DNA of 64,000 nt from Octopus vulgaris. Taxonomy: Eukaryota. Made by a program: the position numbers and the translations under genes. Where the stretch lies: contig OX597827.1 of the NCBI GenBank assembly GCA_951406725.2, positions 66,278,001-66,342,000 of the forward strand, given 5' to 3'. The notes under the pieces were generated by a model. That model saw only the letters and a list, made by a program, of their open reading frames with translations, was not told the origin of the DNA and made no database searches. Of the stretch, positions 5,421 through 42,510 are shown one piece after another (positions within the stretch are counted from its first letter, which is position 1; each line of letters opens with the position of its first letter).

Positions 5421-6290
5421 AGCGGTATTTCGTCTGTCTTTACGTTCTGAGTTCAAATGCCACTGGGGTCGACTTTGCATTTCATCCCTTCGGGGTCGAT
5501 AAGTTAGATACCAGTTACGCACTGGGGTCGATGTAATCGACTTAATTCGCTTGCCTGTCCTTGTTTGTCCCCTCTATGTTTAGCCCCTTGTGGGTAATAA
5601 AGAAACAGGTATTTTGTCTGCCGTTACATTCTGAGTTCAAATGCCGCCGAGGTCGACTTTGCCTTTCATCCTTTTGGGGTCGATTAAATAAGGACCGGTT
5701 ACGCACTGGGGTCGATATAATCGACTGAATCTGTTCGTTAGTACTTGTTTGTCCTCTCTTCCTTTAGACACTTGTGGGTAGTACAGAAATAGAAATAGGT
5801 ATTTCCTCCGTCTTTACATTCTGAGTTCAAATTCCGCCGAGATCGACTTCGCCTTTCATCCTTTCGGGGTCGATAAATTAAGTACCAGTTACGCACTGGG
5901 GTCGATATAATGGACTTAATCGGTCTGTCTGTCCTTGTTTGTCTCCTCTGTGTTTGGCCCCCTTGTGGGTAGTAAAGAAATAAACATTATGTCTGCCGCT
6001 ACGTTCTGAGTTCAAATTCCGCTGAGGTCAACTTTGCCTTTCATCCTTTCGGGGTCAATTAAATAAGTACCAGTTACGCACTGAGGTCTATGCAATCGAC
6101 TCAATCGCTTTGTCTGTCCTTGTTTGTCCCCTCTGTGTCTAGCCCCTTGTAGGTAGTAAATACAAAGGTATTTCGTCTATCCACCGAGGTCGGCTTTGCC
6201 ATTCATCCTTTCCTTGTCGATAAATTAAGTAGCAGTTGCGTACTGAGGTAGATCAGATCGACTGACCCCTCCCTCCAAAAGGAATTCTTT
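5421..6290 (+). repeat. Tandem array of SINE family B units (~185 bp, about 4.5 units)
   Basis: Units start near 5424, 5608, 5798, 5983 and 6167 (GGTATTTCGTCTG...GAGTTCAAATTCC...AGTAAAGAAATA). Confidence 0.88.
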
Positions 6291-13711: not shown

Positions 13712-14140
13712 TGTCTGTTCTTGTTTGTCCCCTCTGTGTTTAGCACCTTATAGGTAGTAAAGAAATAGAAATAGGTATTTCGTCTGCCCGTACGTTGTGA
13801 GTTCAAATTCCGCCGAGGTCGACATTGCTTTCTTCCTTTCGGGGTCAATAAATTAAGTACCAGTTATGCACTGGAGTCGATATAATCGACTTAATCCGTT
13901 TGTCTGTCCTTGTTCGTCCCCTCTTTGTTTATTCCCTCGTGTGTAGTAAAGAAATAGGTATTTCGTTTGCCGTTACGTTGTGAATTCAAATTCTGTCGAG
14001 GTCGACTTTGCCTTTCATCCTTTCGGGGTCGATAAATTAAGTACCAGTTACGCACTAAAGTCGATGAAATCGACTTAATCCGTTTGTTTGTCCTTGTTTG
14101 TCCACTCTATGTTTAGCCCCACGTGGGCAGTAAAGAAATA
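13711..14140 (+). repeat. SINE family B tandem array (~2.3 units)
   Basis: Unit starts at 13774 and 13957. Confidence 0.85.
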
Positions 14141-15131: not shown

Positions 15132-15866
<735 letters not shown>

Positions 15867-16141
15867 ATAAAAATTTAGCAATTAAGGACAACTACTTAAT
15901 AAGGAAAACTTAACAAGAAATTGTCAGGTAGATAGCGTGAAAACCTCATAAGAGAAAAAATTTCGAAAATAATTATTTCTTATTGAACATATTAATTTAT
16001 ATATAGAGGGCATTATACATACATGCCAGAGGGCATTATACATACATGCCACACGCTAAGAGGGACAATTAGTCATTTCTACCAAAAATATTACTAATCC
16101 CACCGAATGCAATTTTTCAAAGTAAGACATTTAAAAAATAT

Positions 16142-16189
16142 AGACCTGTATCACAGTGATTTCATACTTACGTATTCATCAGCAGGCCT
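16142..16189 (-). ncRNA. Type I hammerhead ribozyme, inverted copy (475-bp family)
   Basis: Exact reverse complement of 16637-16684. Confidence 0.88.
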
Positions 16190-16636
16190 GGATGTATCAT
16201 ACATAAACGACCCTGCCTCGCTTAAGCCGATCAGCTAACTGATCAACATCAACGAAGTAATATTTTTGGTAGAAATGACTAATTGTCCCTCTTATCGTGT
16301 GGCATGTATGTATAATGCCCTCTGGCATGTATGTATAATGCCCTCTATATATAACTTAATATGTTCAATAAGAAATAATTATTTTCGAAATTTTTCTCTT
16401 ATGAGGTTTTCACGCTATCTACCTGACAATTTCTTGTTAAGTTTTCCTTATTAAGTAGTTGTCCTTAATTGCTAAATTTTTATTCCGAAAAAACTTCTCC
16501 TTTCCCGAAATGCAATTCGTAAAAGTCTGCCATTTACCGGATGTAATATATGTAAACTCACCCATGTGCTTCGTTGATGTTGATCAGTTAGCTGATCGGC
16601 TTAAGCGAGGCAGGGTCGTTTATGTATGATACATCC

Positions 16637-16684
16637 AGGCCTGCTGATGAATACGTAAGTATGAAATCACTGTGATACAGGTCT
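16637..16684 (+). ncRNA. Type I hammerhead ribozyme, intact core (475-bp family)
   Basis: AGGCCTG-CTGATGA-ATAC(GTAA)GTAT-GAAA-TCAC(T)GTGA-TA-CAGGTCT: 7-bp stem I, canonical CUGAUGA/GAAA core, 4-bp stem II with GNRA loop, quasi-palindromic stem III (ATCACTGTGAT), AUA cleavage triplet (cut after 16677). Confidence 0.88.
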
Positions 16685-16847
16685 ATATTTTTTAAATGTC
16701 TTACTTTGAAAAATTGCATTCGGTGGGATTAGTAATATTTTTGGTAGAAATGACTAATTGTCCCTCTTAGCGTGCGGCATGTATGTATAATGCCCTCTGG
16801 CATGTATGTATAATGCCCTCTATATATAAATTTATATATACACACAC

Positions 16848-16917
<70 letters not shown>

Positions 16918-17989
16918 ATGTATGTATGTATATGCACATGTATATACACACACAAACAGACATGTACACACACATTTTTAATTATTATCATTCACAATTA
17001 AATATATCAATACTAATCTCTGAATCAGTACTCCACGTAGATTTTAACTATACAGTCAGTCTCCAGTATTATTATTACCCAACCACTGTACTAAACAATG
17101 ATACTAGTTATGATATAAAGAGCGTACTTATGCGTATGCTTATATGCTAATATTCATATGCAAATATATGTATACACACAAATGCGTTCGAAAACATACT
17201 TGTTAGGGGGCATTATCAGAATGTAATCACATCCCTTCAAAGCTTTTCTTACGCAGAAGAAAATGCTGAACCCATTCCTTACACTGGGGTTTCGGGGTGT
17301 CTTGAACGTTCCCCAGACGAACCGTAGGCAATTTCCTCCACACTCGCTAGCATATTACATCGAACACTTTTATGTAATGTATTCACATCGTAAGATATTA
17401 TCACAGTTGGACGCCTAAGGCATCTTATATACATATACACAACCACACACGCATTGGCGCACACATATAGAGGTACAAATATATATGTATATGTGTGTAT
17501 GTAAACACAGACTCACACACAAAACGCTCACACACACATATGCATGTATATATATCCATATATTACGCAGAGGGATATATATTTGTGCATATTTATGAAC
17601 GGAGGTTAGAATATTATACGCGAATATTATTTACCACATGTACGCTTTCTCAATGAATTAATCAAACGGCCTTATATTCATTTACATGGTCATGTATAAA
17701 ATTAGAATTGATACGTGAATTAGTAACTGCAAGAGAAATAATGTAATATGAGCAATTTACAGTAAAACAGAAGATCGTTTTCTGATGGATTGAAAAGCTA
17801 TTTTGCTTTGTGGGTGCAACAATAAGGAACATGAAATACGTTACGAATATTTATCTTTTGATTAGTACACTGATGTTTAAAAATGCATATCAACTATTTT
17901 CTTTCGCAAAGGCTTTTCAAAGTTCCTTGCAAGGATTCACTAAAATTATATACACCCTGTAAATAGAACATGATTATTTCCTCATTTCA

Positions 17990-18939: not shown

Positions 18940-19513
18940 GGCGGTAAACTGGTCAACACGCCGGGCGAAATGCTTAGCGGTATTTCGTCTACTGCTACGT
19001 ACTGAGTTCAACTTCCGCCGAGGTCGACTTTGCCTTTCATCCTTTCGGAGTCGATAAATTAAGTATCAGTTACGCACTGGGGTCGATATAATCGACTTAA
19101 TCCGTTTGTCTGTTCTTGTTTGTCCTCTCTGTCTTTAGCCCCTTGTGGATAGTAAAGAAATAGGTATTTCTTCTGCCGCTACGTTCTGAGTTCAAATTCC
19201 GCCGAGGTCTACTTTGCCTTTCATTCTTCGGGGTCGATTAAATAACTACCAGTTACCCACTGGGGTCGATATATTCGACTGAATCCGTTTGTCTGTCCTT
19301 GTTTGTCCTCTCTGTGTTTAGCCCTTTGTGGGTAGTAAAGAAATAGGCATTTCGTTTGTCTTTACGTTCTGAGTTCAAATTCCGCAGAGGTCGACTTTGC
19401 ATTTCATCCTTTCGGCGTCGATAAATTAAGCACCAGTTGTGTGCTGGAATCGATCTATTCGACTAGCCTCCTCCCTCAAAATTTCGGGCGTTGTGCCTTA
19501 AGTTGAAAAGAAT
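18940..19513 (+). repeat. SINE family B: head, 3 units, terminal tail
   Basis: Head GGCGGTAAACTGG...; units at 18979, 19163, 19345; ends CCTCCCTCAAAATTTCGGGCGTTGTGCC. Confidence 0.85.
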
Positions 19514-42279: not shown

Positions 42280-42510
42280 GTAAATATAGGATAAATTCTT
42301 TATAAGAATTTATCAAGTAGTTAGCGTGAAAAACCTCGTAAGAGAAAATTCCATCTAATTTTCTCTTAAATATATTTATATTATATAGAGGGCATTACTA
42401 TACATAAATGCTACACGCCAGGGGTGTGTTTATTTATTTTGGTAGTTTTGACTTTAAGAGTCCCTCCTAGTGTGTGGCATATATGTATAGTAATGTCCTC
42501 AATATAATAT
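42280..42510. mobile_element. Diverged relative of the 475-bp family, short fold-back
   Basis: TAGCGTGAAAAACCTCGTAAGAGAAAA and TAGAGGGCATTA...TGCTACACG match 15930-16060; arms ~42378-42424 and ~42464-42510 are inverted; TA-rich flanks. Confidence 0.6.

What the first reader, a model, noticed from the sequence alone, without database searches (positions are those of the whole stretch)
15867..16833. Outward-facing twin hammerhead ribozymes in an inverted plus tandem non-coding element (475-bp family)
Seen: an intact type I hammerhead at 16637-16684 (+) and its exact inverse at 16142-16189 (-), in a layout rc(XY)|Y-Z-X-Y' with period ~475 bp, no credible ORF, inside (TA)n. Stem III (ATCAC-T-GTGAT) has a 1-nt loop, so it cannot fully close within one molecule but is self-complementary. 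A 23-bp internal duplication is present in all three Y copies, so they share one template. Known: Penelope-like elements carry minimal type I hammerheads in partially tandem or inverted pLTRs, and metazoan non-LTR retrozymes make small circular RNAs using dimeric hammerheads. Inference: a young non-autonomous ribozyme retroelement copied more than once around a circular or multimeric RNA, with a 5' inversion. Read-through gives a long dsRNA that masks the ribozyme, whereas transcripts starting in the centre would self-cleave on either strand.
Basis: partly seen in the sequence, partly recalled or inferred. Interest (0 to 1): 0.85.

Follow-up and report, generated by a model that had tools for sequence, protein, structure and literature searches.

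The report
Hammerhead retrozyme with Penelope-style insertions
This is one of dozens of young copies of a 475-base non-coding repeat carrying a hammerhead ribozyme motif, and its insertions end in the pattern that Penelope-like retrotransposons leave, so it is likely a ribozyme-bearing parasite copied by their enzymes.

Summary
Observation confirmed: type I hammerheads at 16637-16684 (+) and 16142-16189 (-), in a head-to-head arm pair of a 475-bp unit inside (TA)n. The locus is not special. The exact core occurs 119 times in the genome and a looser motif 1,935 times (controls 0). Stems I and II covary across subfamilies. Of 60 insertions mapped, 44 hold both orientations, and 95 of 104 3' ends fall at two sites about 120 nt apart (A, B). 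Where both ends are A or B, 34 of 35 have one of each. ORF-bearing Penelope-like elements (PLEs) of this genome show the same tailed-plus-untailed ends (2 of 2 inverted copies with both ends seen). The two arms share a haplotype (489 of 501 sites). Best reading: a non-LTR retrozyme, likely mobilised in trans by a Neptune-type PLE that primes at two internal sites, probably on a circular RNA. Corrections: stem III can close as 4 bp with a triloop, so a dimer is not required; the 23-bp duplication is family-wide; this locus has one ribozyme per strand and cannot excise a monomer. Not shown: cleavage, circles, expression, the partner element. New member of a known kind, with a testable mechanism.

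The parts
15867..16257 (-). Reverse arm: u314-475 followed by u1-228; its 3' end is at site B (tailed end) and abuts (TA)n
16256..16730 (+). One full 475-bp unit (u1-475) of the forward arm
   Evidence: same period in other loci
16731..16837 (+). Start of a second unit (u1-107); 3' end at site A (untailed end), abutting (TA)n
16637..16684 (+). Type I hammerhead motif; predicted cut after A16677
   Evidence: covariation
16142..16189 (-). Identical type I hammerhead motif in the reverse arm; predicted cut after position 16149 on the minus strand
16256..16257 (.). Head-to-head junction of the two 5'-truncated arms, 2-nt overlap (microhomology)
   Evidence: overlap distribution
16354..16483 (+). 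The 'tail': about 120 nt between site A (u99-107) and site B (u219-228), the two inferred internal priming sites; holds a motif shared by related subfamilies
   Evidence: (1,108 matches, control 0)
16300..16346 (+). 23-bp tandem duplication, a family-wide feature (also 16776-16821 and, inverted, 16005-16051)
15315..15869 (.). (TA)n target microsatellite, left flank
16821..16933 (.). (TA)n target microsatellite, right flank

Best explanation
This is an insertion of a young, non-coding 475-bp hammerhead repeat (a non-LTR retrozyme) that was likely copied into a (TA)n tract by the reverse transcriptase and GIY-YIG endonuclease of a Penelope-like element acting in trans. Shown: the unit, the ribozyme motif and its covariation, dispersed young copies, (TA)n targets, two fixed 3' ends, the one-A-one-B rule, and a shared haplotype of both arms. 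Inferred: tandem loci are transcribed and self-cleave to a 475-nt monomer that is ligated to a circle. A PLE protein, probably a dimer, nicks both strands of (TA)n. One nick primes at site A and the other at site B, both internal and about 150 and 270 nt past the ribozyme cut. Each cDNA runs a variable distance, often more than once around, and the two truncated ends join head to head by short microhomology. This locus holds one ribozyme per strand, so it is likely a dead-end product.
For: Family: 40 of 849 candidates scored, all 98-100% identical; 119 exact cores, control 0; 1,935 loose matches, control 0. Ribozyme selected as RNA: in 14 subfamily variants 94.8% of cells pair, 46 cells change on both sides, 0 of 500 shuffles reach this, and slid registers give 23-43%. 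The cut-to-cut monomer of L032 folds as a circle at -137.8 kcal/mol, z -8.1, 0 of 60 shuffles. Ends: 95 of 104 at A or B; 91 of 104 flanks TA-rich; 34 AB, 1 BB, 0 AA (binomial p 2e-9). One template: opposite arms differ by 0.59%, tandem units by 0.66%, different loci by 1.75%; diagnostic sites agree 489 of 501 against 69.5% between loci. Partner class present: 150 of 6,136 GIY-YIG candidates scored, many in 781-aa open frames; P0001 has RVT_1 and GIY-YIG; ten 781-aa copies are 95-100% identical to it. These PLEs also end in (TA)n at two sites about 35 nt apart, and L116 and L122 each show one tailed and one untailed arm. Literature: partial tandems, inverted 5'-truncated copies, a tail at one end and (TA)n bias are PLE marks (PMC8557442); a purified PLE protein nicks and extends both strands and starts at two internal sites that define the tail (PMC11167929).
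Against: No autonomous parent was found. The unit has no similarity to the young Neptune-type terminal repeat (local score 108 against shuffles 105 +/- 7), and the one PLE-unit adjacency was a nested insertion (0 of 11 relatives). The tail is about 120 nt, not the 30-40 nt of described PLEs. Nine of 44 two-orientation insertions have one end at neither site. The isolated ribozyme is predicted to prefer a misfold (stem III pairing probability 0.03). In the anole PLE the ribozyme is dispensable for insertion in vitro (PMC11167929), and 8 of 9 Xenopus retrozyme dimers did not cleave (bioRxiv 10.64898/2026.07.22.740005). A circle cannot be told from a homogeneous linear multimer by these data. Loci were chosen by an intact core, which biases the conservation figures.
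Confidence: 0.78

Rival explanations
1. Same PLE-driven insertion, but the template is a linear multimeric read-through transcript of a tandem source locus, and the ribozyme has a role other than making the template.
For: PLE protein uses unprocessed RNA and ribozyme mutants still insert in vitro (PMC11167929). A sister subfamily has an array of about 30 units of 481 bp at C1:64640504-64654969. 19 of the 119 core matches were not listed and could hold a source array.
Against: Among the 100 listed matches the longest same-strand run is 4 units. Several haplotypes each give internally uniform tandems, which needs several uniform source arrays. The monomer folds unusually well as a circle, and stems covary.
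Confidence: 0.3
2. The unit is only the terminal repeat (pLTR) of an autonomous PLE, and the copies are its short 5'-truncated products.
For: All end features are those of PLEs; pLTRs can supply integration in trans (PMC3846280); retrozymes resemble pLTRs in Xenopus (bioRxiv 10.64898/2026.07.22.740005).
Against: Arms run through whole units into the next unit, up to about 4, and none of 60 insertions runs into an RT or endonuclease frame. Resident PLEs carry minimal U3-A8 hammerheads with a 4-nt palindromic loop, unlike this canonical one. None of 46 GIY-YIG loci has the unit as its terminal repeat.
Confidence: 0.07
3. The inverted arm arises by fold-back self-priming that copies the first arm, as proposed for rotifer Penelope elements (PMC3846280).
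For: The arms share a haplotype and 16 private variants are shared across arms; in 23 of 33 A+B insertions one arm could by length lie inside the other.
Against: In 10 of 33, this locus among them, neither arm is contained in the other. The 5' starts lie within 30 nt of each other in only 7 of 33, against 4.2 expected by chance.
Confidence: 0.06
4. A LINE mobilises the element and the inversion is L1-type twin priming.
For: LINE-like frames are common in the flanks of fetched loci; junctions show 1-6 nt overlaps in 21 of 44 cases.
Against: No poly(A) or simple-repeat tail belongs to the element. Both arms end at fixed internal sites. One arm's 5' end is not adjacent to the other's priming site (4 and 2 of 33, against 3.2 expected each).
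Confidence: 0.04
5. The inversion at this locus is an assembly artefact.
For: No listed contig piece of four public runs spans this junction (contigs only, so not informative).
Against: 44 of 60 insertions have both orientations, each with its own junction, and they obey the A+B rule; the arms differ at a few sites.
Confidence: 0.01

Closest known systems
Metazoan non-LTR retrozymes (Cervera and de la Pena 2020, PMC7229834; Li, Clavereau and Pollet 2026, bioRxiv 10.64898/2026.07.22.740005)
   Same: Short non-coding tandem unit with one canonical type I hammerhead per unit, low GC (34%), no LTRs, strongly self-paired monomer, coexists with PLEs; monomers, dimers and multimers dispersed in the genome.
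   Different: Unit is 475 nt (expressed examples were 170-400 nt; the 2026 preprint gives consensus lengths of 51-972 bp). Stem III is longer (4-5 bp). Most copies are partial tandems with a head-to-head inversion and two fixed ends in (TA)n; the passages I read do not describe this for retrozymes. No homology to a resident pLTR was found, unlike 24 of 57 Xenopus families that matched known elements.
EN+ Penelope-like elements, Neptune type (Craig et al. 2021, PMC8557442; Arkhipova et al. 2013, PMC3846280)
   Same: Partial tandems, inverted 5'-truncated copy, tail at one end only, microsatellite target, hammerhead near the end.
   Different: No RT or GIY-YIG frame; canonical rather than minimal hammerhead; tail about 120 nt rather than 30-40 nt.
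Poseidon element of the green anole (Frangieh et al. 2024, PMC11167929)
   Same: Two internal start sites of reverse transcription downstream of the hammerhead that define the tail; AT-rich target; both strands nicked and extended.
   Different: That element is autonomous and its start sites are not homologous to the target; here both sites are short TA-rich stretches that could pair with the nicked (TA)n, and there is no ORF.

Membership tests
Type I hammerhead ribozyme | Conserved core (CUGANGA, GAAA, UH) joining three stems, stem I open | tested here: met
   Rfam models did not hit
Type I hammerhead ribozyme | Stems kept by compensatory change | tested here: met
   8 of 11 pairs of stems I and II change on both sides, 0 of 500 shuffles for cells; stem III and core were in the search pattern, so their invariance is no test
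Type I hammerhead ribozyme | Self-cleavage | not testable with these tools
   needs in vitro transcription; folding predicts a competing misfold
Non-LTR retrozyme | Short tandem unit with a type I hammerhead in each unit | tested here: met
   475-bp period; 19 of 60 insertions have two or more same-strand ribozymes; this locus has one per strand
Non-LTR retrozyme | Non-coding, low GC, no LTRs | tested here: met
   longest ATG frame 59 aa; GC 0.34; no ORF joined to 60 insertions; PBS and PPT not searched
Non-LTR retrozyme | Dispersed, recently mobile copies | tested here: met
   (1.75% between loci)
Non-LTR retrozyme | Expressed as monomeric linear and circular RNA | not testable with these tools
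   only assembled contigs were on offer, none on record as RNA
Autonomous EN+ Penelope-like element | ORF with PLE reverse transcriptase and GIY-YIG endonuclease | tested here: not met
   tblastn of P0001 finds nothing in the window and no joined frame at the mapped loci
Autonomous EN+ Penelope-like element | Partial tandem or inverted structure with a tail at one end and microsatellite target | tested here: met
   (34 of 35 A+B; 91 of 104 TA-rich flanks)
Non-autonomous derivative of a given PLE | Sequence shared with the terminal repeat of an autonomous partner | tested here: not met
   none with the families sampled; only 150 of 6,136 endonuclease candidates were scored and 46 loci read, so other families remain untested

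The most novel reading that the evidence does not exclude
Each head-to-head insertion records a two-headed reaction: a PLE dimer nicks both strands of (TA)n and primes once at each of two fixed sites on a circular ribozyme RNA that shares no sequence with the PLE. Retrozymes would then be structural mimics recruited in trans, and the 34-of-35 rule would be a genomic read-out of how PLEs make inversions and tails.
Probability: 0.35. Interest if true: 0.7.

Novelty: new member of a known kind. Interest (0 to 1): 0.45.

Why it matters
Which enzyme moves animal retrozymes is open: PLEs are proposed from co-occurrence and pLTR similarity. This family adds a different kind of evidence, the insertion signature itself, counted over 60 young insertions, and it comes with intact candidate proteins and two predicted priming sites, so the question can be tested in one in vitro assay. 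It also bears on how PLEs form inverted ends and tails. The element class, the hammerhead and the inverted layout are each already described.

Tried and rejected
Rfam: no hammerhead hit at gathering score or at E up to 10. Search for an autonomous parent: none of the mapped insertions joins an RT frame; 46 GIY-YIG loci lack the unit as terminal repeat (L088 holds a diverged copy separated by microsatellites); L168 was separated by (TA)n; L193 looked like a parent, but 0 of 11 relatives carry the unit at that place and they have their own end. Tail similarity to the young Neptune-type repeat is at shuffle level. Expression: no RNA holder listed on record. Two runs guessed to be RNA hold contigs of the unit, one of 421 nt across the predicted cut; contigs show no ends, strand or level, so this counts neither way. 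No listed piece spans this locus's junction, also uninformative. Core against flank conservation in the young family (0.28% core, 0.45% ribozyme, 1.17% rest) is biased because loci were picked by an intact core, so it is not used as proof. Fold-back and L1-type twin priming were tested by arm geometry and found unsupported (33 of the 34 A+B insertions, the rearranged L040 left out). The young Neptune-type copy L114 gave no hammerhead under the strict scan; its older relatives did under a relaxed scan. Earlier findings by sequence and by genome: nothing.

Full report
Observation. The window holds exactly two type I hammerhead motifs under a structure-aware scan of both strands, at 16637-16684 (+) and 16142-16189 (-), identical in sequence. 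With u = window position minus 16255, the forward arm (16256-16837) is u1-475 plus u1-107, and the reverse arm (15867-16257) is u314-475 plus u1-228; they meet head to head with a 2-nt overlap. Both outer ends abut (TA)n. The longest ATG frame is 59 aa. Rfam sees nothing here.

Family. The window lies in a 2.8-Gb animal genome (G000:C14:66278001-66342000). That it is likely a cephalopod is my recalled impression and was not tested. A 201-bp query gave 849 candidates, of which 40 were scored, at 98-100% identity. The exact 27-nt core occurs 119 times, control 0 (100 places listed). A looser pattern that fixes the core and stem III occurs 1,935 times, control 0, and includes a sister array of about 30 units of 481 bp. 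A motif in the tail occurs 1,108 times, control 0. Twenty public runs from 7 studies and three organism labels hold half or more of the unit's words; four were laid.

Ribozyme. In 14 variants picked to represent subfamilies, 94.8% of cells pair and 46 cells change on both sides; 0 of 500 shuffles reach either value, and slid registers pair at 23-43%. The two measures that count pairs or pair types did not exceed shuffles (100 and 230 of 500). Core and stem III were in the search pattern, so only stems I and II are a test. Stem III can close as 4 bp with a triloop (-9.3 kcal/mol), but a misfold pairing the core with the 5' strand of stem III is at -11.7, and the palindromic stem III gives an intermolecular duplex of -10.1. 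A dimer or a protein may help but is not required by geometry. Invertebrate retrozyme ribozymes were reported to cleave well as monomers (PMC7229834, passages). The natural cut-to-cut monomer of L032 is 475 nt, 34% GC, and folds as a circle at -137.8 kcal/mol, z -8.1 against 60 shuffles. A read-through transcript of this locus is predicted to bury the ribozyme in the long inverted helix; this is prediction only.

Insertion anatomy. I mapped 60 insertions from 59 loci, taken from the best BLAST hits and the 100 listed core matches. Forty-four hold both orientations. Of 104 outward 3' ends, 47 lie at site A (u95-110 window of classification), 48 at site B (u214-230) and 9 elsewhere; 91 have TA-rich flanks. 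Among the 44, 34 are A+B, 1 is B+B, none is A+A, and 9 have one unclassified end (p 2e-9 for 34 of 35). The ends lie about 150 and 270 nt past the ribozyme cut, so priming is internal and not at the cleaved end (inference). Related subfamilies at about 75% identity end at the matching places. Opposite arms differ by 0.59%, tandem units in one arm by 0.66%, different loci by 1.75%; at 16 subfamily-diagnostic sites opposite arms agree in 489 of 501 comparisons against 69.5% between loci. Both arms thus come from one template or one source. Junction overlaps are 1-6 nt in 21 of 44. In 10 of 33 A+B insertions, this one included, neither arm can be a copy of the other, and 5' starts are neither clustered together nor adjacent to the other arm's priming site. 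That argues against fold-back and against L1-type twin priming. Thirty-three of 66 arms exceed one unit. Nineteen of 60 insertions have two or more same-strand ribozymes and could excise a monomer; this locus cannot.

Partner. A GIY-YIG search scored 150 of 6,136 candidates and showed many 781-aa open frames. [quoted passage not shown] Ten copies are 95-100% identical to it. This family ends in (TA)n at two sites about 35 nt apart. Its inverted copy L116, and L122 of a second family (46% identical to P0001, arms 100% identical over 766 bp), each have one tailed and one untailed arm. Relatives carry minimal U3-A8 hammerheads, a variant described in PMC4209133 (passages). No sampled PLE shares sequence with the 475-bp unit, and the one apparent link, L193, was a nested insertion. 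The partner is therefore identified by class, not by family.

Mechanism. Shown: unit, motif, covariation, targets, ends, A+B rule, shared haplotype. From the literature: purified anole PLE protein nicks and extends both strands of AT-rich DNA, starts at two internal sites that define the tail, is predicted to be a dimer, and does not need ribozyme cleavage in vitro (PMC11167929, parts 1-2 of 4 read). Inferred: a PLE dimer primes once at A and once at B on retrozyme RNA, and the two cDNAs join by microhomology. A circular template is the simpler account of uniform tandems in several haplotypes, but a uniform linear multimer is not excluded.

Known and new. Non-LTR retrozymes are described in corals, mussels and amphibians, with PLEs as the proposed mobiliser (PMC7229834, passages), and a 2026 preprint argues for PLE origin from co-occurrence and pLTR similarity in vertebrates (10.64898/2026.07.22.740005, parts 1-3 of 5 read; supplements closed). 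Inverted copies, one-ended tails and (TA)n bias are known for PLEs (PMC8557442, 12 of 14 passages; PMC3846280, passages), and opposite-strand hammerhead pairs 100-700 bp apart are noted in PMC4209133 (12 of 17 passages). Six paper searches listed no report of this family or of a counted A+B rule in a retrozyme; the library lacks most subscription papers and repeat databases were not searched, so the family may be catalogued. Two earlier scan notes describe tRNA-bearing units with similar PLE-type insertions in other genomes (unchecked).

Verdict. Real, young, and ordinary in kind: a new member of the non-LTR retrozymes. Its value lies in the clean insertion rule, which makes the mobiliser question directly testable. 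Interest 0.45.

Noticed in passing
window 42283-42489: Short head-to-head copy of a diverged relative (about 76-81% identical to the tail region), inside TA-rich repeats; no ribozyme found in it.
   Followed up: partly
L114:768-2204 (also L111, L119): The young Neptune-type element has a second, upstream open frame of 479 aa with no convincing Pfam match, overlapping the start of the RT-endonuclease frame; canonical PLEs have one ORF.
   Followed up: partly
L156:2537 and 2890 (+), G000:C1 near 70536800-70537200: A second, unrelated type I hammerhead repeat with period 353, next to a copy of this family.
   Followed up: no
G000:C1:64640504-64654969: Array of about 30 units of 481 bp of a sister subfamily, preceded by an inverted copy at 64639813; a possible long product or source array.
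   Followed up: no
L092:3015 (-), L112:5730 (-), L139:1783 (-): Another recurring hammerhead-like motif with a long stem II, a third family.
   Followed up: no
L088, L089, L092, L197 and others, 400-900 nt after the endonuclease: Resident PLE families carry minimal hammerheads with a U3-A8 core and a 4-nt palindromic loop III (16 of 57 loci scanned gave a relaxed hit).
   Followed up: partly
window 5424-6178, 13767-14140, 18979-19438: Three tandem arrays of a related 183-184-bp unit, 79-87% matches, 2 to 4 copies each.
   Followed up: no
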